DNA of 64,000 nucleotides from a virus: IMG/VR virus record IMGVR_UViG_3300036780_000209, positions 102,499-166,498 of that record; one strand, given 5' to 3'. Made by a program: the position numbers and the translations under genes. This document shows, one piece after another, positions 30,257 to 51,240 of this stretch; position 1 is the stretch's first letter; the number at the start of each line of letters is the position of its first letter. Below the pieces are notes generated by a model. The model did no database searches and was not told the DNA's origin. It worked only from the letters and a program-made list of their open reading frames with translations.

Positions 30257-32398
30257 CTACCCCTTGTAATTGAGCACCTGGCTGAGTACATGCTGCACCC
30301 GGCAGAGGTCGGACTGAGCCTCCATCACCAGGTCAATGTCCTTGTAGGCCTGCGGGTGCTCGTCCACCAGGTCCTTCGCCCGGTCCTCGTTCCAGGTGCG
30401 GCCCGTCATCGCCTTCTTGAGGGAGCTGCCGGTCAGCTCCCGGCGGGCCTGGCCCCGGCTGAGGCGGCGGCCCGCACCGTGGCTGCACGACAGGTAGGAA
30501 GCAGTGTTAGCCAGGCCGCTGACAACATAGGAGCGCGTTCCCATCGAGCCCGGGATGATCCCCTCATCGCCTGCGCCGGCCTTGATCGCGCCCTTGCGGG
30601 TGATCCACAGCTCGCGGCCCAGGTGCTCCTCGCGCTGGGTGAAATTGTGGTGGCAGTTGATGGTGCGCACCACCTTGCCCTTGCCGACGACCTGGAACAG
30701 GGACTTCGTGAGCGCGCCGACCATCTGCTCGCGGGACGCCATGGCGTAGCGCTGAGCCCAGAGCATGTCATGGATGTAGGCGCTGAACTCGTCGGTGCCC
30801 TCGGCCAGGTAGGCCAGGTCCGGGTCCTCCAGGTGCACGAGCGTCTTCTTCATCACGCCCTTGGCGGCGTTGATGTGCATGGTGGCGAGCTGGTTGCCGA
30901 TGCCCCGGGATCCTGAGTGCAGCACGGTCCAGACGACATCGCGCTCGTCCAGGCAGACCTCGACGAAATGGTTGCCCGACCCGAGGGTTCCGAACTGGAC
31001 CTCTGCCGTGGCCCGCTGCTTGGGCGACAGCGAGGTAAACGGCAGGCCGATCGCATCATAGGCGGCGAAATGCGGGGCCACGGCGATGGTCCAGTGGTCC
31101 GGGTCGTGGCCCTTGCCCACTCCGGCCGGGATGCGCTGCTCGATCAGGGACATCAGCGTGCGCGTCTCCTTGCCGACCTTCACGCGCTGGGTGCCCAGGT
31201 CCGGCAGGTCGGCGGCGGTCAGGCTGGTCTCGCTGGCCACCATCCCGCAGTTGCCGGTCATGACGATATTGCCGCCACGGCGCATGACCCAGAAGCCTGA
31301 CGGGACCTTGAAGCAGTACGCCTTCCCATCCTCAGCCGGCACCATGGTAATCGGGGTCTTCGGGACGCCCGCCATGGAGACCATGGTCTTATCGTGCCGG
31401 AATACCCGGTAGTCCAGCTTCCCGTCTTCGTCTACGTCAGCACGGAGAACGGCCCGGCGACCGCAGGCGGTGAAGGCATAATGAATGAAGTCAGCAGATT
31501 CCTTGTCTCGCGTGTAGAAGCAACCCTCTACCACGTTCCCGTCCCAGTTCAGGCACTCATCAGTGACATGCATAAGCTGGTTCAGGTGAGCTGGCCAGAA
31601 GGACTCGTAGGATTTCGAGTACAGCGGTGGCCGGAAGCGGAAGGCAGTGACCTCATCCGCGCTCACGTTCTCGGTCCAGGAGATGCCAGCATTAGCCAGC
31701 AGCTTGCGGGCACGCTCGATCTTGCGCTCCTTCTTGAGGCGGACTACTGCTTTCCTGCCGCCGTCATCGAGATGCCCGTCAGCATTGACCATGACCTGAA
31801 CCCGGATCTCCTCAGCGGTGAGATCAATCTCGGTAGCAAGATCAGGAATAAAGGTGGTAGCGAAGCGAGCCTTGAAACCCTGCTTGAGACGGGCATGCTC
31901 GGCAGCGAAATGATCGGCGGTCATGGTGGTCATGACCGTGCGGCGATCCCGGCCGGTGACCTTCCAGCAGAGCACCCGGTGGTCTGCTGTGAGCACCTGG
32001 TCAATCCCGTACTTCGTCCGGAGACGATAGAACGACTCACATGGCTGCACGACGAACGCCTCGGGCTGGACGAAGCGACCCACCCCATACCCCGGCACGT
32101 ACTGCATCACCAGGCCGCCGTCATACTCGCTGATCTTGCGCCAGCCCGCAGGCGACAGGTACTCACTGTCCTTGTCTACACACCCGATGTCCACTCCGAC
32201 GGCAGCGGGAATGACCGCGCCCTCCGTGGGAATGACAGAGCCGACGGTCGCGCCGATGCCGACGTGGGCGTCGGGCATCAGGGCCACGTGCCCTGGCACG
32301 AACGGCATCCGGGAGGCCTTGGCCGCCTGGTCGATCGTTCCCTGCTCCATCAGCGGCCGGCCCCAGGCCAGCACCTTGTCTGCTGCCCGCTCAGGCAT
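30257..32398 (-). CDS. rtcB: RtcB RNA ligase with intein
   Basis: MPDAH.G.G, VGVDIG^CGM, GTLGSGNHF.E, HSGSRG.G, HHN, PGSMG, SHGAGR and DEHPQAYK. Start re-called at MPERAAD. Confidence 0.95.
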   Translation of the reverse strand: MPERAADKVLAWGRPLMEQGTIDQAAKASRMPFVPGHVALMPDAHVGIGATVGSVIPTEGAVIPAAVGVDIGCVDKDSEYLSPAGWRKISEYDGGLVMQYVPGYGVGRFVQPEAFVVQPCESFYRLRTKYGIDQVLTADHRVLCWKVTGRDRRTVMTTMTADHFAAEHARLKQGFKARFATTFIPDLATEIDLTAEEIRVQVMVNADGHLDDGGRKAVVRLKKERKIERARKLLANAGISWTENVSADEVTAFRFRPPLYSKSYESFWPAHLNQLMHVTDECLNWDGNVVEGCFYTRDKESADFIHYAFTACGRRAVLRADVDEDGKLDYRVFRHDKTMVSMAGVPKTPITMVPAEDGKAYCFKVPSGFWVMRRGGNIVMTGNCGMVASETSLTAADLPDLGTQRVKVGKETRTLMSLIEQRIPAGVGKGHDPDHWTIAVAPHFAAYDAIGLPFTSLSPKQRATAEVQFGTLGSGNHFVEVCLDERDVVWTVLHSGSRGIGNQLATMHINAAKGVMKKTLVHLEDPDLAYLAEGTDEFSAYIHDMLWAQRYAMASREQMVGALTKSLFQVVGKGKVVRTINCHHNFTQREEHLGRELWITRKGAIKAGAGDEGIIPGSMGTRSYVVSGLANTASYLSCSHGAGRRLSRGQARRELTGSSLKKAMTGRTWNEDRAKDLVDEHPQAYKDIDLVMEAQSDLCRVQHVLSQVLNYKG
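31250..32182 (-). mobile_element. 311-aa intein in RtcB
   Basis: Begins CVDKDSEYL, has block B VLTADHRVL and a LAGLIDADG-like VMVNADG, and ends MTGN/C at the VDIG|CGM site. Confidence 0.92.
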
Positions 32399-32468
32399 CA
32401 GTACCACCTCGTCTCTGATTACAAGGTATCTTATCAAGCAACTCGTTATCTTCGAAGAAAGGATCACC

Positions 32469-32705
32469 GTGAAGAAGATCATCAAGGGCATCGGCTCACT
32501 CGGGCTCACCGCCGCGTCGGCCCTGCTCGCGGGTGCCTGCTACGAGCACGGACGGAAGATCGGCAAGGGGGAGGCCAAGTTCTCTCCCGAGGCACTCGGC
32601 TCCACCGCCCACGGCTTCATGACCAAGGTGGTCATGAAGGTCGTGGAGCAGCGGGCCAGGCTCGCAGCCGAGCAGGCCGCAGCCAAGGCCAAGTCCAGGG
32701 GCTGA
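32469..32705 (+). CDS. Hypothetical protein
   Basis: AAAGGA RBS and GTG start, divergent from rtcB and followed by a terminator. Confidence 0.55.
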   Translation: MKKIIKGIGSLGLTAASALLAGACYEHGRKIGKGEAKFSPEALGSTAHGFMTKVVMKVVEQRARLAAEQAAAKAKSRG

Positions 32706-38624: not shown

Positions 38625-38771
38625 GGATTGCCTCCTTCCCACCTTCCGGGGGACCGGAGGGGGAGGAGCAGTAAAAGCTGATGGCCCTCGTGCCGGCCGC
38701 TGCGCCTCCGGGGCGCTTGGCGAGCACGAGGGCCAGAGCAGTTCACTCCGCAGCGGAAACGAGAAGCCGGG

Positions 38772-38843
38772 AGACCCCTAGCGGATTCGAACCGCTGTGA
38801 CTGACTTTGCAGGCCAGCACCTAAACCACTCGGCCAAGGGGCC
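38772..38843 (-). tRNA. tRNA-Cys(GCA)
   Basis: Cloverleaf, loop CT GCA AA, T-loop TTCGAAT. Confidence 0.9.
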
Positions 38844-38966
38844 GCAAAGGAGACCAGGCAGTGTAAGAGCCCCGTCTGAGGGGGATGGCTTACCTGATCT
38901 CCAGCGAGACGCCGGATGCACCTTATCCTCCGGAGCGACCAGGGTGTGAGGCTACTCATCTCGCCG

Positions 38967-39039
38967 TGAGCCTGGAGGGAATCGAACCCCCGGCAATCTC
39001 TTTAGGAAAGAGGCACTCTATCCCCTGAGTTACAGGCCC
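38967..39039 (-). tRNA. tRNA-Arg(CCT)
   Basis: Cloverleaf, loop TT CCT AA. Confidence 0.88.
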
Positions 39040-39164
39040 GTGAGCCGGTTGGGTAGGGACCGGCAGCCCCCTGGCCTCGCCGTGTTTAGATCACGCCACT
39101 GACCGGCAAGCCGGGGATGGCGATCGGAGAGAGTCCCTCAGGCCAGTGGAACCCTATCTCCCCG

Positions 39165-39237
39165 CGCTCTCAGAGGGACTCGAACCCCCGACCCGCAGCT
39201 TCGGAAGCTGCCGCTCTATCCGCTGAGCTATAAGAGC
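39165..39237 (-). tRNA. tRNA-Arg(CCG)
   Basis: Cloverleaf, loop TT CCG AA. Confidence 0.92.
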
Positions 39238-39383
39238 ATGCTGTGCCGGCCTCACCCTCTAGCCGGCCCGGGGACCCTGCCCATGACCGCGTCCCTACTT
39301 TGCTCGGAGGGGCCGTTCCGGACCATAGCTACCCTCAGTGAACGAAGCACCGACTCTCATCGGTGCCCGGCCGGTTCACGCAG

Positions 39384-39457
39384 TGCTCTTAGCCGGATTC
39401 GAACCAGCCGCCTGCACCTTCGCAAGGTGCTGCTCTATCCTGCTGAGCTATAAGAGC
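39384..39457 (-). tRNA. tRNA-Arg(GCG)
   Basis: Cloverleaf, stem GCACC/GGTGC, loop TT GCG AA. Confidence 0.88.
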
Positions 39458-39523
39458 AAAGACCCGGGATTCGGAGAACCTTGAGGAGGCGTTTCTTCCT
39501 CCTGCGCGCCGCCGGGACAGCGC

Positions 39524-39606
39524 TGGTGCCAGGCGAGGGACTCGAACCCCCGTACCCGTAGGACGTGATTTACAGTCACGCGCGATTGCCGCTCTGCCAG
39601 CCTGGC
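39524..39606 (-). tRNA. tRNA-Tyr(GTA)
   Basis: Long variable arm, loop CT GTA AA, encoded CCA. Confidence 0.92.
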
Positions 39607-39607
39607 A

Positions 39608-39683
39608 TGGGGTCCCCGGCGGGATTCGAACCCGCGAATACCAGGCTCACAACCTGGTCCCGAATGCCACCTGGTTCGGGGAC
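39608..39683 (-). tRNA. tRNA-His(GTG)
   Basis: Loop TT GTG AG, C73, encoded CCA. Confidence 0.88.
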
Positions 39684-39685
39684 AG

Positions 39686-39759
39686 TAGGCGATGCAGGGA
39701 TCGAACCTGCGGCCTCCGCTGTGTGAAAGCGGCGCTCTTCCGACTGAGACTAATCGCCC
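39686..39759 (-). tRNA. tRNA-Val(CAC)
   Basis: Loop TT CAC AC. Confidence 0.9.
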
Positions 39760-39852
39760 ATGTGACACGAGCAGGAATTGTCTGCACATTCCACCTGCAT
39801 CAGCCTTAAGTCCGTGCAGGGACTTTCAGGTTGCGGATGCCGTGTCTCATCC

Positions 39853-39927
39853 TGGTACTCCCAGAGGGATTCGAACCCCCATTAACAGGTCCGTAACCTG
39901 TCGTGATATCCGTTTCACTATAGGAGC
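39853..39927 (-). tRNA. tRNA-Arg(ACG)
   Basis: Loop TT ACG GA, encoded CCA. Confidence 0.9.
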
Positions 39928-39985
39928 ATGCGCACCTGATGGCCGGGCGGTGCCCTCCCGATGCGGGGTCGGTCAAACCCTGCCG

Positions 39986-40059
39986 TGGACCTACCTGGGC
40001 TCGAACCAGGGACCTCTGCCGCGTCGAGGCAGCGCTCTTCCAATCTGAGCTACAAGTCC
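39986..40059 (-). tRNA. tRNA-Val(GAC)
   Basis: Stem CTGCC/GGCAG, loop TC GAC GC (C at position 33). Confidence 0.8.
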
Positions 40060-40062
40060 AGT

Positions 40063-40300
40063 GGCCGGAGTCTTGGCGAATTCCCGCGCTCCTCGCGGAG
40101 GCGCTCTCCGGGTCAGTCCCGGAGGACTGCAGGGGCTACCCTGGGGAAATGGTCCAGCCTGTCCTGATGCCAGGGCACGTGCAGGGCGTCCCCCGCTGTA
40201 GAGGATCCAGGGGCACGGGTACTGTCCCCTGAAACCTCGTTAGGCAGTTTCACCTGCCACGGGAGGGTCAGCGGTGACTAGTACGCTGCTGCCTCCGGCC
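40063..40300 (-). ncRNA. Candidate 238-nt structured RNA
   Basis: Closed by an 8-bp GGCCGGAG/CTCCGGCC stem, with several internal hairpins. Confidence 0.5.
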
Positions 40301-40303
40301 GAG

Positions 40304-40343
40304 CGGTCCCTACGAGACTTGAACTCGCGACCTCTGCCTTGAC
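40304..40343 (-). pseudogene. 3' half of a second tRNA-Asp(GTC)
   Basis: GTCAAGGCAGAGGTCGCGAGTTCAAGTCTCGTAGGGACCG with no matching 5' half. Confidence 0.8.
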
Positions 40344-40349
40344 CAGAGG

Positions 40350-40760
40350 TCAGGCGGCTGCGCCTGGAGAGACCTCGTACTGCTGAGCCCAGCGAACATG
40401 CTGAGCCTGATTGTTGTTGGTCGGCTCAACCCTAAGCCGGCCCTCTCGCTCACCTACATCCCCCACCGGCACCAAGTACACCTTGTCCAGGGCCGGACAG
40501 TAAACCCCAAACAGGTCAGCATCTCCTCGGTACCCCATGGAACTCTGATCGCGCCGTAGGCTATGCGGCCGGAACAGGACGCAGCCCTGCTGGTAGACCG
40601 CCGTTTTGCATTGCACCCGGACCAGGGTGCCGTCGCCGCCGTCATAGGCCAGGTCGTATCTGTGGCCACCGCCGAACGGGATCAGGACTCGCTTGCCGAG
40701 CCGCAACAAGGCCGCGAGCACGATCCCTTCAGTTTGACTACCTTTGTCCGTTGTGTTCAC
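40350..40760 (-). CDS. I-Ssp6803I-like PD-(D/E)XK homing endonuclease
   Basis: T..KG...E...L..G..VLIPFG...RYDL..D....L.RVQCKT...Y..DADLFGVY....KVYLVPV. Confidence 0.85.
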   Translation of the reverse strand: MNTTDKGSQTEGIVLAALLRLGKRVLIPFGGGHRYDLAYDGGDGTLVRVQCKTAVYQQGCVLFRPHSLRRDQSSMGYRGDADLFGVYCPALDKVYLVPVGDVGEREGRLRVEPTNNNQAQHVRWAQQYEVSPGAAA

Positions 40761-40784
40761 GAGACCTATGTTACATGCTGACAG

Positions 40785-40858
40785 CGGTCCTGACGGGATT
40801 TGAACCCGCGACCTCCACCTTGACAGGGTGGCGAGCACTCCAACTGCTCTACAAGACC
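40785..40858 (-). tRNA. tRNA-Asp(GTC)
   Basis: Cloverleaf, loop CT GTC AA. Confidence 0.93.
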
Positions 40859-40982
40859 ATGTGGTCCGACTAGGCAGGATTCTGGACTGCAGTTTCCTAA
40901 AACCTGCCGGGCACCCTCCGGTTAGGGCATCGGACCTGCCCAGGCCAAGCTAGCCGGTTTATCGCTTAGCGCTTGACCATCG

Positions 40983-41055
40983 CTCCCCTGTCAGGATTCG
41001 AACCTGAAACCCTCCGGTTAACAGCCGGACGCTCCGCCAGTTGAGCTACAAGGGA
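40983..41055 (-). tRNA. tRNA-Asn(GTT)
   Basis: Loop CT GTT AA. Confidence 0.92.
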
Positions 41056-41092
41056 TTAATCAGCCTCCCGGCTTATTAGCAGGGAGGCTTCG

Positions 41093-41166
41093 TAGCGGGA
41101 GTCGGATTCGAACCGACGTTCTGTGGGTTATGAGCCCACCGAGATACCGAGCTTCTCCATCCCGCG
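41093..41166 (-). tRNA. Initiator tRNA-fMet(CAT)
   Basis: Starts CGCGGG and has three consecutive G-C pairs in the anticodon stem. Confidence 0.85.
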
Positions 41167-41207
41167 TCGCCAACGCTAGCATCCCTGACGGGGAAATGCA
41201 AGCAAAG

Positions 41208-41279
41208 TAGTCCCAGAGGGAGTTGAGCCCTCTTTTCCGGGGTGAAAACCCGGCGTCCTAACCCGTAGACGATGGGACC
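41208..41279 (-). tRNA. tRNA-Glu(TTC)
   Basis: Loop TT TTC AC, variant T-loop CTCAACT. Confidence 0.85.
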
Positions 41280-41338
41280 AGGGTGCCGGCTCAGCAGCGC
41301 GATCGTCTGCCCGGCTTCCCGGCAGCCTGAGCCGGTCG

Positions 41339-41412
41339 CAGTGCGTACGGGGCTCGAACCCGTCATCTCCGCCTTGAGAGGGCGGCGTCTTGTCCGTCTC
41401 GACCAACGCACC
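41339..41412 (-). tRNA. tRNA-Glu(CTC)
   Basis: Loop CT CTC AA. Confidence 0.92.
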
Positions 41413-41518
41413 ATGAGGTACGGCGAGCCGGCTTGCGGCCTGCCCGCTTTAGGATCCGGGCAGCTAAACCCGGCGGCTATTCAGAGCCATTCCTCTTAGG
41501 CCGCGTACCCGGCCCGTG

Positions 41519-41591
41519 CGCACCATGAAGGATTCGAACCTTCGCCCGTCTGCTTAGAAGGCAGCCGCGCTATCCGCTGCGCCAATGGTGC
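41519..41591 (-). tRNA. tRNA-Arg(TCT)
   Basis: Loop CT TCT AA. Confidence 0.9.
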
Positions 41592-41595
41592 TCAG

Positions 41596-41666
41596 TGCCC
41601 CGCCGAGGTATCGAACCCCGTTCCGCCGGGTAAAAGCCGGTTACATCACCTTAATGCTTGCAGGGC
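41596..41666 (-). tRNA. tRNA-Lys(TTT)
   Basis: Loop CT TTT AC. Confidence 0.88.
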
Positions 41667-41671
41667 ATGCG

Positions 41672-41745
41672 TAGACCCCCTGAGGATCGAACTCAGCTCA
41701 TACCGGGTATAAGCCGGCTCCCCGCAACCAGCGTGGCTAGGGTCC
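41672..41745 (-). tRNA. tRNA-Ile(TAT)
   Basis: Stem GCCGG/CCGGT, loop CT TAT AC. Confidence 0.82.
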
Positions 41746-41750
41746 ATGAA

Positions 41751-41928
41751 GAATGTCCTGGTGTGCTGCTACGCCAAAGGCCCTGGAGGCAACCACGAGC
41801 CGCACGCCTTCCGGGCATGCGGGACGGCCGTCCCAGCCCGCGTACTTCGGCCTTCCAGGTTAACCAGGTGGCCACCTGGCCCACTCCTTAGAGGATGGCT
41901 GCTTCTAAGCCAACCTTCCAGGACATTC
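41751..41928 (-). ncRNA. Candidate RNA mimicking the 23S rRNA uL11-binding domain (H43-H44)
   Basis: 11-bp perfect closing stem. Contains GTTGGCTTAGAAGCAGCCATC and a GCGTAGCAGC hairpin. Confidence 0.75.
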
Positions 41929-41930
41929 AG

Positions 41931-42002
41931 TAGCGAGAGGGAATTGCGACATCCCGACCTCCGCCTTATGAAAGCGGCGTTCTTCCTCTGAACTATCTCG
42001 CC
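41931..42002 (-). tRNA. tRNA-Met(CAT), elongator or Ile2 type
   Basis: Loop TT CAT AA, atypical T-loop. Confidence 0.75.
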
Positions 42003-42178
42003 ATGTGGGCCGGCCGGCTGCGGAACATCCGGACGGGCGTGGGATGCCTGTCCAGCCAGCACATGAAGCACTGAGGCCATGCGCGGCCGGAGCGGAACAT
42101 CACTTCCTTGCTGATCTTGTCTTCCCGGGCGCGGTCGGTGCAGTCCCTGCACGCCTGCCAGGTACCCATTGTGTTCAC
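41993..42178 (-). CDS. Possible small Zn-binding protein
   Basis: CRDC...CFMC in 61 aa filling a tRNA spacer. No clear RBS. Confidence 0.35.
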   Translation of the reverse strand: MNTMGTWQACRDCTDRAREDKISKEVMFRSGRAWPQCFMCWLDRHPTPVRMFRSRPAHMAR

Positions 42179-42179
42179 G

Positions 42180-42253
42180 TAGACCGCCGAGGAGTTGAAC
42201 CTCGCCGCTAACTGCGTATCAGGCAGTCCCCTTCACCGGTTGGGTAGCGGTCC
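42180..42253 (-). tRNA. tRNA-Ile(GAT)
   Basis: Loop CT GAT AC. Confidence 0.88.
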
Positions 42254-42404
42254 TTGAGTCTCGCCGCTTCTTCATCCGAGCGGCGTGACCAGCCCTGCAG
42301 ATATCACATTTACAACCATGCTTACGATACATAGCAACACTGCCATGCTTAAACCCATTAATCCAGCTAGGATTATCTCCCGATTCCCTGGTGCTGGTGC
42401 CCAT
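42219..42404 (-). pseudogene. Probable remnant of an endonuclease-associated Zn-finger domain
   Basis: HGSVAMYRKHGCKCDICR in an AT-richer patch that overlaps tRNA-Ile. Confidence 0.4.
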
Positions 42405-42439
42405 GACTGATGCTCGCGCATCAGGGTACGTACTATGCC

Positions 42440-42607
42440 ATGTTCGCAATCATCGCAGTGGTCCTGTTCGCCATCGCCACGCTCATCGCGTTCACGTCAC
42501 TCAGCGGGATCTCGGTCCTCGGGCTGATCGCGGCGGGGCTGCTGTGCATTGCCCTGCACCTGGCCATCGGCGGGACCGTCACGATCCCGTGGCATCGCCA
42601 GCCGTAA
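42440..42607 (+). CDS. Small two-helix membrane protein
   Basis: MFAIIAVVLFAIA...GLLCIALHLA with high GC3, antisense to the tRNA array. Confidence 0.65.
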   Translation: MFAIIAVVLFAIATLIAFTSLSGISVLGLIAAGLLCIALHLAIGGTVTIPWHRQP

Positions 42608-42608
42608 G

Positions 42609-42694
42609 CGGATCGCGGAGGTCCCGACCCCCAGCCCCGTGAAGGACCCTTCCGCTTTCAAGGCGGAGGCCGCCGCCTGACGGCTTCACGATCC
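42609..42694 (-). tRNA. tRNA-Ser(TGA)
   Basis: Long variable arm, loop CT TGA AA. Confidence 0.85.
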
Positions 42695-42780
42695 AGGTGG
42701 CGCATGCCAGGACTCCCGCCGGTCCTGGCTCGGCGGTGCCTGGCTCCAGGACTTGTGGTTCCCGGTGCGCCGCCGGGAAG

Positions 42781-42867
42781 CGGATGACGGAGTACTCGAA
42801 ACCCACCCCCTTGCAGGAGCCAGCCGCTTTCGAGGCGGAGCCGGTGCGCCTGCCCGGTTCGTCATCC
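42781..42867 (-). tRNA. tRNA-Ser(CGA)
   Basis: Long variable arm, loop CT CGA AA. Confidence 0.87.
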
Positions 42868-42947
42868 AGGGTGATCCCGTTAGGCAGGTCTGCGCCCTGC
42901 AGCCCGTGCGCACGGACAGCCCGGGTACAGGATCAAGCCGGGCTTTG

Positions 42948-43033
42948 CGGATGACGGAGAGCCCGAGTCCCAGCCCCTTCACGGGACCCGCTCCGTTTCC
43001 AGCGGAGGCCGGCGCCTTGCCGGTTCATCATCC
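42948..43033 (-). tRNA. tRNA-Ser(GGA)
   Basis: Long variable arm, loop CT GGA AA. Confidence 0.87.
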
Positions 43034-43248
43034 ATGTTCCCGGAGTATGGCATTACCCGATTCTGCCAGGGACTTGCGCTGGTCTAGTGACCTCGCCATG
43101 CGATGCGGTCGGGACACGTGTCGCACACGCAAGGTGCCAGCCAGGCCGCCAGGAGCGGCCTGCACGGCCTGGGCTCTCCTGAGTCCGCCGTAGCCATGGC
43201 AGCGGGGAGAGCGACGGAATCGAACCGTCCCGGGCATGCCCGGCCTAG

Positions 43249-43335
43249 CGGAGAGCGGACTACTCGAAAGCCACCCCCTTGCGGGAGCGATCCGGCTAGC
43301 AACCGGTCCCAGCGCGCCTGTCTGGTTCACCCTCC
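43249..43335 (-). tRNA. tRNA-Ser(GCT)
   Basis: Long variable arm, loop TT GCT AG. Confidence 0.87.
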
Positions 43336-43450
43336 ATGCTGACCCGTTCGCCCTCCGCGACGGCTGGGCAGCCGTCCGAGGTACTGGGCAGGGCTTGGTC
43401 GCGACACCGTTCGCCCTGGAGGCGGCCACGGCTCCTCAGCCGCCTCTTCG

Positions 43451-43524
43451 TACTCTCGGAGGGATTCGAACCCTCAACATCCACGCCCTGAACGTGGCGA
43501 CTCTACCAATTGGCCTACGAGAGC
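43451..43524 (-). tRNA. tRNA-Leu(CAG), short variable loop
   Basis: Loop TT CAG GG, 5-nt variable region. Confidence 0.88.
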
Positions 43525-43638
43525 ATGGTCCCGGCACTTCTGCCCGTCCAGGCGCTACCTGGACTTCGCCGCTGCCGGGCGCTGGCGGGCTTTGGCGTGA
43601 TCACGGGTCCCTGGCCAGGGCGCACCGCGCTCACCCAG

Positions 43639-43711
43639 AGCGGCTGACGGGAATCGAACCCGCGACCTCCACCTTGGCAAGGTGGCGCTCTGCCTGCTGA
43701 GCTACAACCAC
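43639..43711 (-). tRNA. tRNA-Gly(GCC)
   Basis: Loop TT GCC AA. Confidence 0.92.
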
Positions 43712-43770
43712 ATGCAGGGCTTGCGCCCCGTTAAAGCCGGCCCTGCGTCCGGCACTGAGCAAATACTGCG

Positions 43771-43843
43771 AGGGGACGACGGGGGTCGAACCCGCGACAT
43801 CGTGCTTGGGAAGCACGCACTCTGCCATCTGAGTTACGTCCGC
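43771..43843 (-). tRNA. tRNA-Gly(CCC)
   Basis: Loop TT CCC AA. Confidence 0.88.
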
Positions 43844-43853
43844 ATGTTCAGGA

Positions 43854-43976
43854 TCAGCGGGTGCAGTTAACGCAGCACCCGCTGCCGTGCTGGCTGCAAT
43901 GCAGGAGATCCATTCCGATGCAGTATCCGCAACGACATCCGCAGGTTCCGGCCTGACCGCAGTTACTGGCTTCCAT
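43854..43976 (-). CDS. 40-aa Cys-rich, metallothionein-like peptide
   Basis: AAAGGAG RBS 6 nt before ATG. Translation MEASNCGQAGTCGCRCGYCIGMDLLHCSQHGSGCCVNCTR*. Confidence 0.7.
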   Translation of the reverse strand: MEASNCGQAGTCGCRCGYCIGMDLLHCSQHGSGCCVNCTR

Positions 43977-43999
43977 GCTGATCTCCTTTACTCATAGCG

Positions 44000-44072
44000 A
44001 GCCTGCTGCGGGATTTGAACCCGCGCCCTCTTCCTTACCAAGGAAGCGCTCTGCCGCTGGAGCTAAGCAGGC
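44000..44072 (-). tRNA. tRNA-Thr(GGT)
   Basis: Loop TT GGT AA. Confidence 0.92.
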
Positions 44073-44191
44073 ATGATGCTGGGCCTTGGCAGGTCCCTTT
44101 CTTCCCCTCAGGGGCCGCCTGCGGAAATAGCGCTCCTCGCCCGGCTTCAGAGCGCTTCCGGTGACGGCAGGGAATCCTGCCAGAATTTATG

Positions 44192-44262
44192 CTGACCCGC
44201 CTGGACTCGAACCAGGACTACCGGGGCCAAAACCCGGCGGACTGCCATTGCCCTACGAGTCA
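44192..44262 (-). tRNA. tRNA-Gln(TTG)
   Basis: Loop TT TTG GC. Confidence 0.9.
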
Positions 44263-44443
44263 ATGTATTACCATCGGGTGCCGGAATCGAACCGGCTTCT
44301 CTGCTTTCCGGCAGTATCTCCACCAGGAATACGAACCCTCCGGTCATAGGGAAGCGTGCTTACCGGCTCACTTACACAACGGGACCTTGATCCCGGACAG
44401 GTTGCCGACGGTGCCCCGTTTAAGCCTGCCACCTCTTCCCACG

Positions 44444-44516
44444 AGCCCGCTACAGGGATCGAACCTGCGGCCTGCGCTTTACAAGAGCGCCGCTCTTCCA
44501 ACTGAGCTAAGCGGGC
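44444..44516 (-). tRNA. tRNA-Thr(TGT)
   Basis: Loop CT TGT AA. Confidence 0.92.
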
Positions 44517-44653
44517 ATGGTTGCCGGGGGCGGCAGCCATTAACGGAAAACGTGAGCCAGCGCCATCTCCGGCAAGCTCCGGGCGGCGGGAAGCCTCGAA
44601 CCTTCCCCGGGAGTCCGACCACGGGTGCCGTGGCTGCGCGAACCGCCCTTCCG

Positions 44654-44727
44654 TATCCTCGGCGGGACTCGAACCCGCACTGCCGACGCCCTCAACGTCG
44701 TGCCTCCTGCCATTGGGCTACGAGGAC
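44654..44727 (-). tRNA. tRNA-Leu(GAG), short variable loop
   Basis: Loop TT GAG GG. Confidence 0.88.
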
Positions 44728-44791
44728 ATGATGCGCGAGGTCGCAGGTCTGCGACCCTAAGACGTTCAAGGTCGCACGGATGCCACCTTAG

Positions 44792-44864
44792 AGCCCGAGC
44801 GCGGTCTCGAACCGCGTGCCTGCGCATTACGAGTGCGCCGCTCTCCCAGGTGAGCTACACGGGC
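44792..44864 (-). tRNA. tRNA-Thr(CGT)
   Basis: Loop CT CGT AA. Confidence 0.92.
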
Positions 44865-44989
44865 ATGATCCTGCTCAAGCGTGCGGACGGGCTTTCGCCT
44901 CCGCTGATATATCCCTACCATCACGGGCCGCTAGCAGCCCCGGGAACGGCTCCGGGCCAGGAAGCCGGTACCTGAGCAGGACGACTGAT

Positions 44990-45237
44990 CCTGATGCCTC
45001 ATCCGAACGCCGCGCCGTTCCGGAGTTCCGCCGGTCCCTGGCCAGGTGAAGCGGCTGTTCCTGCGGTCATGGGGCTTATCGGCCTGCCTCTTAGAGTGAG
45101 ATATCCGGAGGTCCTGGCCTCGGCCAGGTTTAAATGCCTGACTGTACCTCAGCTCAACCGGGTAATCCCGCAAGGCCTCAGCTTATCGTCCCTCAGGACT
45201 CCCGCTTTCCGGCACGGCGAACGGAAGAAGCATCAGG
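44990..45237 (-). ncRNA. Candidate 248-nt structured RNA
   Basis: Closed by CCTGATGC/GCATCAGG with further long-range stems. Confidence 0.5.
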
Positions 45238-45243
45238 CATGAG

Positions 45244-45319
45244 CTGCCCACCCTGGGATCGAACCAGGAAAGTCTCCCGGGTCAGAGCCGGGCGGGTCTG
45301 CCAATTCCCCCAGTGGGCA
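45244..45319 (-). tRNA. tRNA-Gln(CTG)
   Basis: Loop CT CTG AC. Confidence 0.9.
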
Positions 45320-45333
45320 TTGTTATTACTGCG

Positions 45334-45408
45334 TGCGCGAAGAGGGAGTCGAACCCTCACACGCCTCATTTTGAGTGAGGCAGCTCTGCCAGTTGGACTT
45401 ACTCGCGC
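45334..45408 (-). tRNA. tRNA-Leu(CAA), short variable loop
   Basis: Loop CT CAA AA. Confidence 0.88.
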
Positions 45409-45465
45409 AAGGCTGGCTCCCGCTGCCACGGAAGCCAGTTACTACGGAACCGCCAGGTAAACGCG

Positions 45466-45538
45466 TGCGCCGTGAGGGACTCGAACCCCCGGCCCGCTGA
45501 TTAAGAGTCAGCAACTCTACCCACTGAGTTAACGGCGC
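45466..45538 (-). tRNA. tRNA-Lys(CTT)
   Basis: Loop CT CTT AA. Confidence 0.93.
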
Positions 45539-45620
45539 AAGATCAGGAATCTCCCTGGCGATGAGGAGCCTACTAACATGGCCGCCAGGCACCTGTTTCG
45601 ACCCCGGAAACTCCTGATAG

Positions 45621-45691
45621 AGCGGGTAGGGGGAATCGGACCCCCGTCACGTGCTTGGAAGGCACGGTCTCTGCCACTGAGTTATACCCGC
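45621..45691 (-). tRNA. tRNA-Gly(TCC)
   Basis: Loop CT TCC AA. Confidence 0.9.
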
Positions 45692-45701
45692 ATTGACTAC
45701 T

Positions 45702-45772
45702 CGCGACACAACGGGACTCGAACCCGTACCTGGGGATTGTGTCCCCCGTGCTGCCGATTACACCATGCGTCT
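45702..45772 (-). pseudogene. tRNA-like element with a 5-nt anticodon loop
   Basis: Intact D and T arms, but stem GGGGA/TCCCC encloses only CACAA. Confidence 0.7.
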
Positions 45773-45825
45773 CAGCCGGGGAGCGACCCTGACCGCAGCT
45801 AAGGGAAGGATCCTTTCCCTTCGCG

Positions 45826-45896
45826 TGTCCCCTGACGGATTCGAACCGCCGTATCCTGGGCTTCAACCAGGCGCTCTTCCCCTGAGCTAAAGAGAC
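45826..45896 (-). tRNA. tRNA-Phe(GAA)
   Basis: Loop TT GAA GC. Confidence 0.9.
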
Positions 45897-46030
45897 GTGG
45901 ATTCGGGCCGGCCCCAGGTTCCACCCCTCTTTCTGAGAGACGGATCCCGGGCTTCGCGAAATGCAGCGGCGGCAGCCTGGCTAGGGCCGTCGCTTCTGAC
46001 CGCTCGGGGGAGCCATCCCACCAGCCCACG

Positions 46031-46102
46031 TCGGGAGGCGGGGACTCGGACCCCGTCTACCTGCTCCCAAAGCAGGCGCGCTCACCCTTACGCGACATCC
46101 CG
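46031..46102 (-). tRNA. tRNA-Pro(TGG)
   Basis: Loop TT TGG GA. Confidence 0.88.
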
Positions 46103-46182
46103 GTGAAAATGAAGACAGCGGCCTGGCAGCCAGGTATCCCCGGTCCAGCAGGCAGTGAGGACTCCCATCTCAGCGCCGTCCG

Positions 46183-46256
46183 TCGGGCTGGAGGGATTCG
46201 AACCCCCGGCCTCCTGACCCCCAGTCAGGCGCTCTGCCAAGCTGAGCCACAACCCG
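46183..46256 (-). tRNA. tRNA-Pro(GGG)
   Basis: Loop CT GGG GG. Confidence 0.92.
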
Positions 46257-46326
46257 ATTAAGAGGCCAGCACGGACTTTCACCGCCGCATACAGCGGGGC
46301 TTGTCTCATCCCCTTTGTGACCTCAG

Positions 46327-46401
46327 TCGGGCTGGAGGGATTCGAACCCCCGGCCTCCGCGTCCCGAACGCGGCGCGCTAACCAAGCTGCGCTACAACCC
46401 G
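46327..46401 (-). tRNA. tRNA-Pro(CGG)
   Basis: Loop TT CGG GA. Confidence 0.93.
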
Positions 46402-46484
46402 ATTGCGGGGCTTCGCTCGCCACTGGCGTATCCGTAGGGCTTTCACCCGGGGAGCAGGATTCGAACCTGCGTACCAGCCCCTCG

Positions 46485-46557
46485 TGGACCACGGGGGATT
46501 CGAACCCCCCACCTCCCGGGTGCAGACCGGGTGCTCTGCCAACTGAGCTAGCAGCCC
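46485..46557 (-). tRNA. tRNA-Ala(TGC)
   Basis: G3:U70, loop TC TGC AC. Confidence 0.88.
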
Positions 46558-46727
46558 ATGCGGCAACCGCGATCTTTGTCTTGATCCGCTGCCTTGTGTG
46601 CTTAGGACGGCGACTCCTCATACAAAGAGAGACACACGAACGACCGTCACAACGCTGGTGACGCTGCTCTGCTGGCTACCATGCCAGTCAGGACCAGGAG
46701 CATTTTCAGTTTCGGCCGAAACTCCCG

Positions 46728-46800
46728 TGGACCTACCCGGAATCGAACCGGGGACCTCTCCCGTGCGAGGGGAGCGCGCTACCTGCTGCGCCATAAGCCC
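46728..46800 (-). tRNA. tRNA-Ala(CGC)
   Basis: G3:U70, loop CT CGC AC. Confidence 0.92.
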
Positions 46801-46921
46801 GTGGAGCCCCGAGTGATTCCGGCCAGGGCGCTTGGAGTCGCGCCTGGTCATGCCGGTTACCATTGTCAGCCGACTGCTAGCAGGACGGCTTCCGGATGCC
46901 GTGCCACGGCTCGGGACATTA

Positions 46922-47097
46922 CGAGGGGCGCTCTGCCGCTGAGCTACCAGCCACCTAGGGCCGGAGCCCATCACCAGTGGCCGGGCAGGATTCGAACCCG
47001 CGACCTCCCCCCTGCTTGCGGAGGGGGCTCTGCGACTTGAGCTATCCCGGCATGGATGGGGCCGGGACCAGGCCTTGCACCTGGATCTCCCTCCTCG
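46922..47097 (-). ncRNA. Tandem circularly permuted tRNA-like RNA
   Basis: Two T-arm > looped acceptor stem > D-arm modules, closed by CGAGG/CCTCG. Confidence 0.7.
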
Positions 47098-47170
47098 TGG
47101 AGCGACGGGGACTCGAACCCCGGACCTCTTGCGTGCCACGCAAGCGCTCTACCTGCTGAGCTATAGCCCC
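47098..47170 (-). tRNA. tRNA-Ala(GGC)
   Basis: G3:U70, loop GT GGC AC. Confidence 0.92.
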
Positions 47171-47469
47171 ATGGATCTTCCTGCCAGGGCCGCCCTTATC
47201 CCTGGCAAAACCCCGGCCGGAGCCGAGCAGAGCCCGGGCAGGACCCTGGCAGGAAGTAATTCCCGAACGGTTTGTTTCATGATCAGGCGAGGCTCACACC
47301 AAGACGACGGCCGGAGATCTCCTCCGGCACCATGCCCGCCCGGGAAGTTACTGCCGGCGACCGCGTGAGCCCAGGTTGGCAGCCTGGCGCGCTCGCCGTA
47401 CTTCTCGTTTCCGCTGTGGAGTTCTCAAGAAACGATCACATTACCCGGACTAGGTCCGGTGGTGATCCG

Positions 47470-47540
47470 CAGGCCCGGAGGGACTCGAACCCCCATTACT
47501 GGTTTTGGAGACCAGCGCTCTGCCGTTGAGCTACGTGCCT
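47470..47540 (-). tRNA. tRNA-Trp(CCA)
   Basis: Loop CT CCA AA. Confidence 0.93.
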
Positions 47541-50073: not shown

Positions 50074-50862
50074 ATGCCGACTATCGGCCAGCTCCTGGCC
50101 GTCCGTGACGGTCACAGGCGCGACTTCGAGAAGATCATCAACTACCTCGACCAGAAGGGGCTGTGCAAGCACCACGAGTGGGCCAGCGGCTTCCACACCA
50201 CGCACCAGCCCTTCGCGGAGGATGCCGAGGGCATCCAGCATGACAAGCAGCCCGACCAGGGCAAGACGGTCCAGACGACCGTGGAGCAGGAGCTGGGCCT
50301 GGTACGCCCTGCCTTCGAGCGGTACCTGGACACCGAGCTGACCATCGACGCGGCCAACCAGGGGGCGAGGGGGGACGTTGTCGTGAACGGCGTCGCCCTG
50401 GCCGAGGACATCCCGGTCGTCACGCTCCTGTGGTGGGAAGGCCGGATCGCCGAGCTGATCGGCGTCTTCGGGAAGCTCCCGGTCCTGGAGCCCGACCAGC
50501 ACTGGACCTTTGACTCGGCCCGGGACATGCACGTGTCGGACCCGGTGCTGACCAAAACCACCCGGCGCACGAACGTGATCAAGGTCGCCATCGCGCCGAC
50601 CGAGCACCAGCCCGGCCAGTTCGCGCAGTGGCAGGATGACGTGCCGAACGGGATGAAGACCACCGTCCAGCTCTCCGGCAAGATGACCGCCGAGGATCAC
50701 CGGGCGCTGATCGCCCGGCTGCGCGTCCTCCAGGACGCGGTCAAGCTGGGCCGCGAGGAGGGCAACCGGGTTGACGCGAGCCGCCGCCGGGCAGGCCGTG
50801 CCCTGGCGGCCTTCGTCTTCGACGGCGAGCTTCCTACCGGGAAGAGCGCCAAGGTAAGCTAA
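50074..50862 (+). CDS. Conserved actinobacterial protein (DUF7873-like)
   Basis: AAGGAG RBS. Motifs QLLAV, D.AN..ARGDVVV.G..LA.DIPV..LL..E, LPVL, APTEHQPGQ, SG and LQDAVK..REE.N recognised from memory. Confidence 0.8.
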   Translation: MPTIGQLLAVRDGHRRDFEKIINYLDQKGLCKHHEWASGFHTTHQPFAEDAEGIQHDKQPDQGKTVQTTVEQELGLVRPAFERYLDTELTIDAANQGARGDVVVNGVALAEDIPVVTLLWWEGRIAELIGVFGKLPVLEPDQHWTFDSARDMHVSDPVLTKTTRRTNVIKVAIAPTEHQPGQFAQWQDDVPNGMKTTVQLSGKMTAEDHRALIARLRVLQDAVKLGREEGNRVDASRRRAGRALAAFVFDGELPTGKSAKVS

Positions 50863-50863
50863 A

Positions 50864-51240
50864 GGCGCTCTGCACGGAACCACTGAGCTGAGGCCCCGAT
50901 CCGGTTGACCGGACGGGGCCTCATCCATTACAGTCTTCCTTGGCAACAAGCTCAAGTTCAAGCTCAAGCTGATCGCCAGCGAAGCCAGCAGTCGCAGGTT
51001 CGAATCCTGCCCCCTGCACCCGTGCAGGGGTACCTCAGCCCGGATAGAGGACTGGTCGCAGCGTCAAGCTCAAGCTCGTGCCGAAGCTCAGACCAGCCAC
51101 CGGTACCCGATCGAGACCGACGGGAAACGGGCAAACTGTGGGGGTTCGATTCCTCCCGGGGCGGCCACGACGCCCCGTAGCTCAACGGCAGAGCATGTGC
51201 CCCTCAGAGATGAACCGCACGGTTAAAAGCTGCAGGTGCC
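50864..51240 (+). ncRNA. Candidate ~377-nt RNA with two permuted tRNA modules and CAAGCT repeats
   Basis: Ends pair (GGCGC-T-CTGCA / TGCAG-GTGCC). Modules at 50994-51050 and 51140-51194. Confidence 0.75.

What the first reader, a model, noticed from the sequence alone, without database searches (positions are those of the whole stretch)
46922..47097. Second tandem permuted-tRNA RNA hidden between two Ala tRNAs
Seen on the minus strand: CGAGG.., T-arm CCAGG-TGCAAGG-CCTGG, acceptor TCCCGGC-[C CCA TCCAT]-GCCGGGA, D-arm GCTC..GAGC, a hairpin with no canonical anticodon loop, AGGTC, T-arm GCGGG-TTCGAAT-CCTGC, acceptor CCGGCCAC/GTGGCTGG, D-arm GCTC-AGCGGCA-GAGC, ..CCTCG. The first acceptor loop carries NCCA and the CAT leader that precedes many true tRNAs here. 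A tRNA scanner would probably call the middle a pseudo-tRNA, but the acceptor strands pair better in the swapped arrangement. Inference: a double-elbow RNA that could be cut into a multi-piece RNA with a CCA end. The architecture matches the 50864-51240 RNA, with little sequence similarity beyond the tRNA motifs.
Basis: partly seen in the sequence, partly recalled or inferred. Interest (0 to 1): 0.8.

Follow-up and report, generated by a model that had tools for sequence, protein, structure and literature searches.

The report
Double tRNA look-alike inside tRNA array
Between two alanine tRNA genes this 166-kb soil phage encodes a roughly 175-base RNA made of two back-to-front tRNA look-alikes with no anticodon; it is a stripped-down relative of the known tRNA-mimicking Y-like RNAs, and its job has not been tested.

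Summary
On the minus strand, 47094-46923 carries two complete circularly permuted tRNA-like modules. Each runs closing stem, T arm, loop-capped acceptor stem, UA, D arm, closing stem, and a 7-nt linker joins them. ARAGORN's "tRNA-???" in the middle is a by-product of the tandem layout: the ordinary cloverleaf is about 30 kcal/mol worse and falls below Rfam's tRNA threshold.

A covariance model built without these modules ranks them directly after its own training modules. A strict scanner finds none in shuffled sequence or at true tRNA junctions.

This is a YrlA-like tRNA mimic, but it is not YrlA: it has no Ro60-binding motif, the phage has no Ro60 gene, and the match is below Rfam threshold. 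Its modules resemble, in the same order, the two heads of the DUF7873-linked double tRNA-mimic RNA that this scan has reported repeatedly, including 3 kb away in this genome. It lacks that RNA's long stems and adjacent gene.

An unrelated metagenome contig has the same bare double filling a tRNA-tRNA spacer.

Module 1's acceptor loop reads N-CCA plus the local tRNA leader, as in M. smegmatis YrlA, which RNase P cuts. Function is inferred. No orthologue was found.

The parts
47089..47094 (-). Module 1 closing stem, 5' strand (GGAGGG). It starts 3 nt after the 3' end of tRNA-Ala(GGC).
   Evidence: Pairs 6/6 with 47025-47020. Module 1 alone folds by MFE into exactly this permuted cloverleaf. Scanner hit.
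47068..47084 (-). Module 1 T arm: 5-bp stem and a 7-nt loop UGCAAGG. U54, C56 and A58 are kept; position 55 is G.
   Evidence: aligned to model R2.
47045..47067 (-). Module 1 acceptor hairpin: 7 bp with a 9-nt loop reading discriminator C, CCA, then leader UCCAU before G+1.
   Evidence: The leader and CCA are compared with the true tRNAs and with other modules.
47027..47042 (-). Module 1 D arm: 4-bp stem and an 8-nt loop without the GG pair. It is preceded by UA (47044-47043).
   Evidence: The A15:U48 Levitt pair is kept.
47020..47025 (-). Module 1 closing stem, 3' strand (CCCUCC).
47013..47019 (-). 7-nt linker between the two modules.
47007..47012 (-). Module 2 closing stem, 5' strand (six G), followed by the variable stretch AGGUC (47006-47002).
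   Evidence: Pairs with 46928-46923.
46985..47001 (-). Module 2 T arm with the canonical loop UUCGAAU.
46947..46984 (-). Module 2 acceptor hairpin: 8 bp with a 22-nt cap that holds a 4-bp mini-hairpin with a UCCG loop. It has no CCA, and G at -1.
46930..46944 (-). Module 2 D arm with loop AGCGGCA (GG present). It is preceded by UA (46946-46945).
   Evidence: The G15:C48 Levitt pair is kept.
46923..46928 (-). Module 2 closing stem, 3' strand.
46806..46917 (-). Separate stem-closed 3' cassette that fills the rest of the spacer up to tRNA-Ala(CGC). It is probably a different RNA released from the same precursor.
   Evidence: MFE fold of 46801-46921 gives -50.8 kcal/mol and closes on itself.
50984..51200 (+). 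Paralogous pair of modules (50984-51056 and 51131-51200) in the RNA that follows the DUF7873 gene (50074-50862). Listed for comparison; not part of this RNA.

Best explanation
This is a non-coding RNA made of two tRNA mimics of the YrlA kind, reduced to the two 'heads'. It is very probably a compact paralogue of the DUF7873-linked double tRNA-mimic RNA of this phage lineage.

Proposed working, all steps inferred:
1. It is transcribed with the tRNA array on the minus strand.
2. The enzymes that trim the flanking tRNAs set it free.
3. Each module closes on itself and folds into an L-shaped body with acceptor/T and D arms but no anticodon loop, so it cannot decode.
4. Module 1 has a 7-bp acceptor stem stacked on a 5-bp T stem, U at -1, G at +1 and an encoded C-CCA. 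It is therefore a likely RNase P substrate, as M. smegmatis YrlA is, and cleavage would leave a nicked RNA with a CCA 3' end.
5. Module 2 stays capped.
6. The RNA then binds or titrates proteins that recognise the tRNA elbow and acceptor end. The phage DUF7873 protein is one candidate. Host tRNA-processing enzymes or tRNA-targeting defence proteins are others.

What is shown: the sequence, the helices and the membership of the module class. What is inferred: processing, partner and role.
For: - All 46 helix pairs of the two-module model are standard pairs.
- The leave-out covariance model R2 ranks both modules directly after its own training modules, at 48.1 and 41.6 bits.
- There are no scanner hits in shuffles or at true tRNA junctions.
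- The tertiary Levitt pair 15:48 was not used to pick modules. It covaries A:U/G:C in 9 of 10 and 10 of 11 modules, and is kept in both of mine.
- Module 1's three nearest relatives are the three lineage M1 modules: L038 73%, L019 59%, the window's own 55%. Module 2's nearest is the array-embedded single module of relative L021 (71%), followed by M2-class modules.
- Against L038 M1, the four acceptor-stem differences form two compensated pairs, and the T and D stems are identical.
- L053 is an unrelated contig in which a bare double fills the 139-nt spacer between tRNA-Lys and tRNA-Trp. Each of its modules folds by MFE into the permuted cloverleaf.
- The CAT leader and T at -1 are shared with the true tRNAs. 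N-CCA recurs in 8 of 15 modules.
Against: - No orthologue was found. The closest relative's contig (L019) ends inside tRNA-Ala(GGC), just before the spot.
- Syntenic relatives L021 and L038 have no double module near their Ala genes. Conservation of this particular RNA is therefore unshown, and it may be young.
- Module 1 lacks the G18G19 and position-55 elbow signature.
- The margin over the best tRNA-junction artefact is modest: 41.6 against 38.4 bits.
- The stem covariation across modules is partly circular, because the modules were selected for pairing.
- There are no expression, cleavage or binding data.
- The DUF7873 model (pLDDT 92.7) matches no known RNA-binding fold.
Confidence: 0.6

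Rival explanations
1. Non-functional relic: a recent, decaying duplicate of the two heads of the DUF7873-linked RNA, or rearranged tRNA gene pieces, carried passively in the array.
For: It is absent from the equivalent place in syntenic relatives L021 and L038. Module 1's T and D loops have lost the canonical elbow bases. No homologue was found in GenBank phages, IMG/VR or the metagenome scan. tRNA halves left as scars are reported elsewhere in this array (note e1-5669327, not checked by me).
Against: All helices are intact. Stem differences from the nearest relative are compensated, while loop differences are many. Both modules keep the Levitt pair. An independent bare double exists in L053 and a bare single in L021. 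Deriving this layout from ordinary tandem tRNA genes would need three precise deletions.
Confidence: 0.15
2. A Y RNA in the strict sense: it works with the host's Ro60 (Rsr), as YrlA does in Mycobacterium and Salmonella.
For: Sub-threshold YrlA matches at 46895-47022 (32.7 bits) and 47026-47089 (16.6 bits). The module layout is the same as YrlA (PMC4201824). The window's high G+C and its closest tRNA and protein matches in phages of actinobacteria suggest an actinobacterial host, and some actinobacteria, such as M. smegmatis, have Rsr.
Against: There is no GNCGAAN0-1G motif and no long closing helix in 46801-47096. The phage has no TROVE gene. The YrlA model also gives matches at E<=0.01 in 9 of 14 control genomes, so weak hits mean little. 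Ro60-type phage Y RNAs seen in the metagenome loci carry a conserved long handle that this RNA lacks.
Confidence: 0.08
3. Processing punctuation: the tRNA-like bodies only recruit RNase P and 3' processing enzymes to cut out the neighbouring 112-nt cassette (46806-46917) and have no role of their own.
For: The double module sits directly upstream of a stem-closed cassette. Module 1 looks like an RNase P substrate.
Against: The flanking true tRNAs already provide such cuts. L053 and L021 have modules with no extra cassette. Two modules would be redundant.
Confidence: 0.05
4. True permuted tRNA gene or genes, as in the red alga Cyanidioschyzon: the halves are joined, for example by the phage RtcB, and the acceptor loop is cut to give a working tRNA.
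For: The 3' half precedes the 5' half. Module 1 encodes CCA and a leader. The phage has RtcB.
Against: Joining the ends cannot rebuild a 7-nt anticodon loop with U33. The closing stems abut a tRNA on one side and a 7-nt linker on the other. Module 2's acceptor is capped by an extra hairpin. The expected end chemistry does not suit RtcB (established enzymology).
Confidence: 0.03
5. An ordinary but odd tRNA (46977-47052) with an 8-nt anticodon loop, i.e. a quadruplet-reading or pseudo-tRNA, as ARAGORN reports.
For: ARAGORN call with anticodon 'gcaa'. Rfam tRNA 25.8 bits.
Against: It is below Rfam's threshold. It has only 5 acceptor pairs with two bases left over, no U33, and a stem capped by a GCAA tetraloop. 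It is 30 kcal/mol worse than the permuted fold. The analogous middle cloverleaf cannot form in L053.
Confidence: 0.02

Closest known systems
YrlA (Y RNA-like A; Rfam RF02553; Chen et al. 2014, PMC4201824), especially M. smegmatis YrlA
   Same: The module is a tRNA-like domain in permuted order: T arm, loop-capped acceptor stem, D arm, closed at the anticodon-stem end. Like M. smegmatis YrlA, module 1 has a 7-bp acceptor stem. That RNA is cut by RNase P and carries CCA.
   Different: There is no Ro60-binding helix or GNCGAAN0-1G motif and no Ro60 gene in the phage. The match is far below the Rfam threshold. Two modules are joined head to tail by 7 nt. The RNA is embedded in a tRNA array.
DUF7873-linked double tRNA-mimic RNA
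   Same: It has two permuted modules in the same M1-then-M2 order. Module-level similarity is up to 73%. N-CCA in the acceptor loops recurs. It occurs in the same phage lineage.
   Different: It is not adjacent to a DUF7873 gene; the nearest is 3 kb away on the other strand and has its own RNA. The linker is 7 nt rather than about 75 nt. There are no long closing helices or hexamer repeats. It is about 175 nt rather than 330-450 nt.
Bare permuted modules packed like tRNA genes: L053 double (metagenome contig Ga0307411_10018339, 2031-2169) and L021 single (9461-9529)
   Same: They have no handle and no adjacent protein gene. They fill a tRNA-tRNA spacer almost exactly. Their closing stems are only 5-6 bp.
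   Different: Their acceptor loops are short caps without CCA. L053 shows no protein similarity to this phage. Mine shares its spacer with a second cassette.
Permuted tRNA genes of Cyanidioschyzon merolae (Soma et al. 2007; own knowledge)
   Same: The 3' half lies before the 5' half, with the acceptor ends joined by a short intervening stretch.
   Different: Those genes mature into decoding tRNAs through a circular intermediate that restores the anticodon loop. Here no anticodon loop can be restored.

Membership tests
YrlA / bacterial Y RNA (RF02553) | tRNA-like module in the order T arm, capped acceptor stem, D arm | tested here: met
   Both modules. The Levitt pair is kept.
YrlA / bacterial Y RNA (RF02553) | Ro60-binding helix with the GNCGAAN0-1G motif | tested here: not met
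   No match to the motif in 46801-47096, and the closing stems are only 6 bp.
YrlA / bacterial Y RNA (RF02553) | Encoded next to a Ro60/Rsr (TROVE) gene | tested here: not met
   No PF05731 match in the 166-kb genome, which CheckV rates 100% complete.
YrlA / bacterial Y RNA (RF02553) | Score at or above the Rfam gathering threshold (69 bits) | tested here: not met
   32.7 and 16.6 bits.
DUF7873-linked double tRNA-mimic RNA | Two permuted modules, M1 type followed by M2 type | tested here: met
   Mean identity of module 1 is 55% to the M1 class and 43% to the M2 class. For module 2 it is 53% and 58.5%.
DUF7873-linked double tRNA-mimic RNA | Lies directly downstream of a DUF7873 gene on the same strand | tested here: not met
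   The only DUF7873 gene is 50074-50862 on the plus strand, and it has its own RNA.
DUF7873-linked double tRNA-mimic RNA | Modules set in long closing helices and spaced by roughly 75 nt or more | tested here: not met
   7-nt linker and 6-bp closing stems. By contrast the spacing is 75 nt in the window's plus-strand RNA and 74 nt in L038.
Ordinary tRNA | Rfam tRNA threshold, 7-bp acceptor stem, 7-nt anticodon loop with U33 | tested here: not met
   25.8 bits against a 29-bit threshold, 5 acceptor pairs, and an 8-nt loop or GCAA-capped stem.
Permuted tRNA gene (Cyanidioschyzon type) | Joining the transcript ends restores an anticodon loop | tested here: not met
   The closing stems are flanked by a tRNA 3' end and a 7-nt linker. 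No U33-containing 7-nt loop can result.
RNase P substrate of the M. smegmatis YrlA type | Cleavage in the acceptor loop and a CCA 3' end in vivo | not testable with these tools
   The sequence features fit for module 1: a 7+5 bp stack, U-1, G+1 and C-CCA.

The most novel reading that the evidence does not exclude
Bare permuted tRNA mimics packed into phage tRNA arrays (this double, the L053 double, the L021 single) form a functional class of their own that needs neither Ro60 nor DUF7873. They are matured by the tRNA machinery. Module 1 would be nicked by RNase P to expose a CCA end. They would then act as anticodon-less decoys that soak up host proteins aimed at the tRNA acceptor end or elbow, such as toxins that modify the CCA end, and so protect the phage's real tRNAs.
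Probability: 0.12. Interest if true: 0.8.

Novelty: new variant of a known kind. Interest (0 to 1): 0.5.

Why it matters
tRNA-shaped decoy RNAs are known mainly as partners of Ro60. This scan keeps finding a second, undescribed kind next to DUF7873. The present RNA shows a third, minimal form: only the two tRNA-like heads, inserted among real tRNA genes as if it were one of them, in a phage that also carries the DUF7873 version.

If it is expressed, the head is the working part and can act without a long protein-binding handle. It would also add a non-decoding component to phage tRNA arrays, which are currently read only as codon-supply or anti-defence tRNA sets. For annotation, it explains an ARAGORN 'tRNA-???' call as an artefact of tandem permuted modules.

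Tried and rejected
- Direct homologues. I searched GenBank phages by blastn, IMG/VR by an exact 27-mer, IMG/VR by a module 1 T-arm pattern (12 hits, none a permuted module) and IMG/VR by a pattern shared by module 2 and the L021 module. None turned up.
- Relatives through the neighbouring 394-aa protein and through DUF7873. Only L019, L021 and L038 are syntenic. L019 breaks off just before the site. The other two lack the double.
- Rfam YrlA as a detector. It is too weak and unspecific: it gives matches at E<=0.01 in 9 of 14 control genomes.
- My model R1 on three GenBank actinophages that carry DUF7873. It found only their DUF7873-adjacent pairs and tRNA-junction noise of up to 46 bits.
- MAFFT alignment of my RNA with the L053 double. 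It was not structure-consistent, so I compared folds by energy instead.
- DUF7873 fold. The model is confident. Foldseek against the PDB gave nothing at E<=0.001. The wide VIA-align search gave only helical-bundle look-alikes with Z<=8.1. A profile search against PDB sequences gave one insignificant hit (E 0.18) to a RelA/SpoT-family protein. PHROGs gave nothing. None of this supports a function.
- A Watson-Crick rescue of module 1's D-loop/T-loop contact. I considered it and dropped it, because the 18:55 and 19:56 contacts are not an antiparallel helix.

Full report
**Setting.** The window is the last 64 kb of a 166,498-base IMG/VR phage record rated 100% complete. Its minus strand carries an array of 40 tRNA genes between 38770 and 47540. 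The finding lies between tRNA-Ala(GGC) at 47097-47170 and tRNA-Ala(CGC) at 46727-46800.

**Anatomy.** Read on the minus strand, 47094-46923 holds two units of identical layout:
- a 6-bp closing stem
- a 4-5 nt variable stretch
- a T arm
- an acceptor stem, directly abutting the T arm and closed by a loop
- UA
- a D arm
- one spacer base
- the other strand of the closing stem

This is a tRNA cloverleaf opened at the anticodon loop and closed at the acceptor end. The connectors sit at the usual tRNA positions (8-9, 26, 44-48).

Module 1 has a 7/7 acceptor stem. Module 2 has an 8/8 stem with one G-U. A 7-nt linker joins the modules. ARAGORN reports the middle as 'tRNA-???' with a 4-base anticodon. 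Rfam's tRNA model gives it 25.8 bits, under the 29-bit threshold, with two acceptor positions unpaired.

**Which fold.**

| Structure | Energy (kcal/mol) |
|---|---|
| Two self-closed modules | -79.7 |
| Ordinary middle cloverleaf | -48.8 |

The unconstrained MFE of -94.9 pairs the two weak D arms with each other. I do not weigh this, because nearest-neighbour models routinely mis-handle D arms. Module 1 alone folds by MFE into exactly the permuted cloverleaf.

The tie between the first two structures arises because all four closing strands are G-runs or C-runs. It is broken by comparison. Each of the 13 other modules I collected closes on itself. In the analogous double of L053 the closing stems differ in sequence, so the central hairpin of the swapped form reaches only 3 pairs and the middle acceptor only 4. 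The self-closed form is complete there, and each L053 module folds that way by MFE.

**More than chance, and not a tRNA junction.** Two adjacent tRNA genes with similar acceptor stems mimic the order T arm, acceptor, acceptor, D arm. Chen et al. flag this as a false-positive source, and I see it too: Pro-Pro scores 38.4 bits here, and a Thr-Phe junction in phage Mimi scores 45.7 bits.

Three points argue against that explanation here:
- The T arm of module 1 and the D arm of module 2 belong to no tRNA.
- A scanner that demands perfect stems, UA and a closing stem finds 3 sites in the window (both of mine and one DUF7873-RNA module). It finds none at the junctions between adjacent true tRNAs of the 40-gene array and none in 60 dinucleotide shuffles, 7.7 Mb in all.
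- Model R2 was built only from other modules. It scores mine at 48.1 and 41.6 bits, directly behind its own training sequences.

The margin for module 1 is modest, and I say so.

**Tertiary signature.** The Levitt pair (position 15 in the D loop, position 48 before the T stem) was not a selection criterion. It is A:U or G:C in 9 of 10 and 10 of 11 modules and covaries. Module 1 has A:U and module 2 has G:C. U8 and A14 are invariant.

Module 2 keeps G18G19 and the canonical T loop. Module 1 has the T loop UGCAAGG and a D loop without GG, so its elbow may be altered. The high share of paired cells across modules (96.5%) is partly circular, because the scanner selected for pairing.

**Relatives and origin.**
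- Rfam's YrlA model matches at 32.7 and 16.6 bits. It matches a second pair on the plus strand at 50966-51221 at 33.1 and 30.5 bits. All are below the 69-bit threshold.
- That plus-strand pair follows an ORF that Pfam assigns to DUF7873 (E 1e-51). Earlier reports of this scan describe this gene-plus-RNA unit many times.
- The phage lineage is sparsely sampled. L019 (DUF7873 79% identical) ends inside tRNA-Ala(GGC).
- L021 and L038 have the same tRNA gene order but no double module near their Ala genes.
- L038 carries its DUF7873 gene and RNA at the far end of the array.
- L021 has a single bare module exactly filling the gap between tRNA-Gly(UCC) and tRNA-Lys(CUU). No DUF7873 gene lies within the 25 kb I hold for it.

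In an identity matrix over the core columns, module 1's three nearest neighbours are the three lineage M1 modules (73, 59 and 55%). Module 2's nearest is the L021 single (71%), followed by four M2-class modules. So the pair keeps the M1-then-M2 order of the DUF7873-linked RNA and is most simply a compact paralogue of it.

Against L038 M1, the acceptor stem differs at four bases that form two compensated pairs. The T and D stems are identical, and the differences pile up in the loops. That pattern speaks for selection on the helices. The homology itself is an inference from about 70 columns.

**An independent bare double.** I ran a metagenome pattern scan built from module 2 and the L021 module. 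Model R1 then picked out L053. There a 139-nt spacer between tRNA-Lys(CUU) and tRNA-Trp consists of two permuted modules 3 nt apart, with margins of 1-3 nt to the tRNAs.

The upstream L053 module was not targeted by the pattern. L053 has no DUF7873 by profile search, no Pfam-recognisable protein and no protein similarity to this phage.

Many other hits in that scan are Ro60-type Y RNAs. They sit in a conserved long handle or beside an ORF whose N-terminus looks TROVE-like by eye. My RNA has no such handle, and the genome has none.

**The acceptor loop of module 1.** It reads discriminator C, CCA, then UCCAU before G+1. In this array 18 of 40 true tRNAs are preceded by CAT and 30 of 40 by T at -1, yet only about four encode CCA.

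N-CCA directly after the acceptor 3' strand occurs in 8 of 15 modules (by eye, where one row was mis-parsed). Several loops end in CAU or CGU.

M. smegmatis YrlA has a 7-bp acceptor stem, is cut there by RNase P in vitro and in vivo, and carries CCA (PMC4201824). Module 1 therefore looks built for the same cut. Module 2, with 8 bp, G at -1 and a hairpin cap, does not. This is inference only.

**What it is not.**
- It is not YrlA in the strict sense: no GNCGAAN0-1G motif or long stem, no TROVE gene, and below threshold.
- It is not a permuted tRNA gene, because no anticodon loop can be rebuilt.
- It is not an RtcB substrate by the expected end chemistry, although the phage does encode an RtcB with a large insert.

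**Partner.** I modelled DUF7873 from 109 homologues (pLDDT 92.7). I found no convincing structural relative, so the protein gives no mechanistic lead.

No sigma-70-like promoter or intrinsic terminator lies beside the RNA on the minus strand. This is consistent with co-transcription with the tRNAs, though it is weak evidence.

**Verdict.** This is a real, well-formed double tRNA mimic and a new, minimal variant of a known kind. Its function is inferred, and its conservation has not been shown.

Noticed in passing
L021:9461-9529 (+): A single bare permuted tRNA-like module fills the gap between tRNA-Gly(UCC) and tRNA-Lys(CUU) in a syntenic relative's array, with 1 and 5 nt to spare. It is the closest relative of my module 2 (71%). 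No DUF7873 gene lies in the 25 kb held for that phage.
   Followed up: partly
L053:2031-2169 (+): An unrelated metagenome contig has a compact double permuted module that fills the tRNA-Lys to tRNA-Trp spacer. It is the only other bare double I found.
   Followed up: yes
window 46806-46917 (-): A separate 112-nt stem-closed structured cassette follows the double module before tRNA-Ala(CGC). It has no family match and its function is unknown.
   Followed up: partly
window 38770-47540 (-): 18 of 40 tRNA genes in the array are preceded by CAT and 30 of 40 by T at -1. This is a strong shared leader signature, presumably for RNase P.
   Followed up: partly
window 30257-32509 (-): The RtcB ORF is 750 aa. 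The Pfam match is split, with positions 1-50 and 48-426 about 300 residues apart, which suggests an intein or other insert.
   Followed up: no
L048, L054, L056, L060, L093 (metagenome loci): These loci hold arrays of small RNAs after tRNA-Trp or at the ends of tRNA clusters. They share a long handle (GCGGGCCGGAGC ... GGTTATC ... CACGACCGC), and some enclose a permuted tRNA module. In L047 and L083 similar RNAs precede an ORF whose N-terminus looks like Ro60/TROVE by eye.
   Followed up: no
L038:18976-19985 (+): In this syntenic IMG/VR relative the DUF7873 gene and its two-module RNA sit at the downstream end of the tRNA array on the same strand. In the window they sit upstream on the opposite strand.
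   Followed up: partly
window 47080-47042 (-): A 12-codon GUG-started frame preceded by GGAGG runs through module 1's T arm and acceptor hairpin. It is probably a coincidence of the G-rich closing strand.
   Followed up: no
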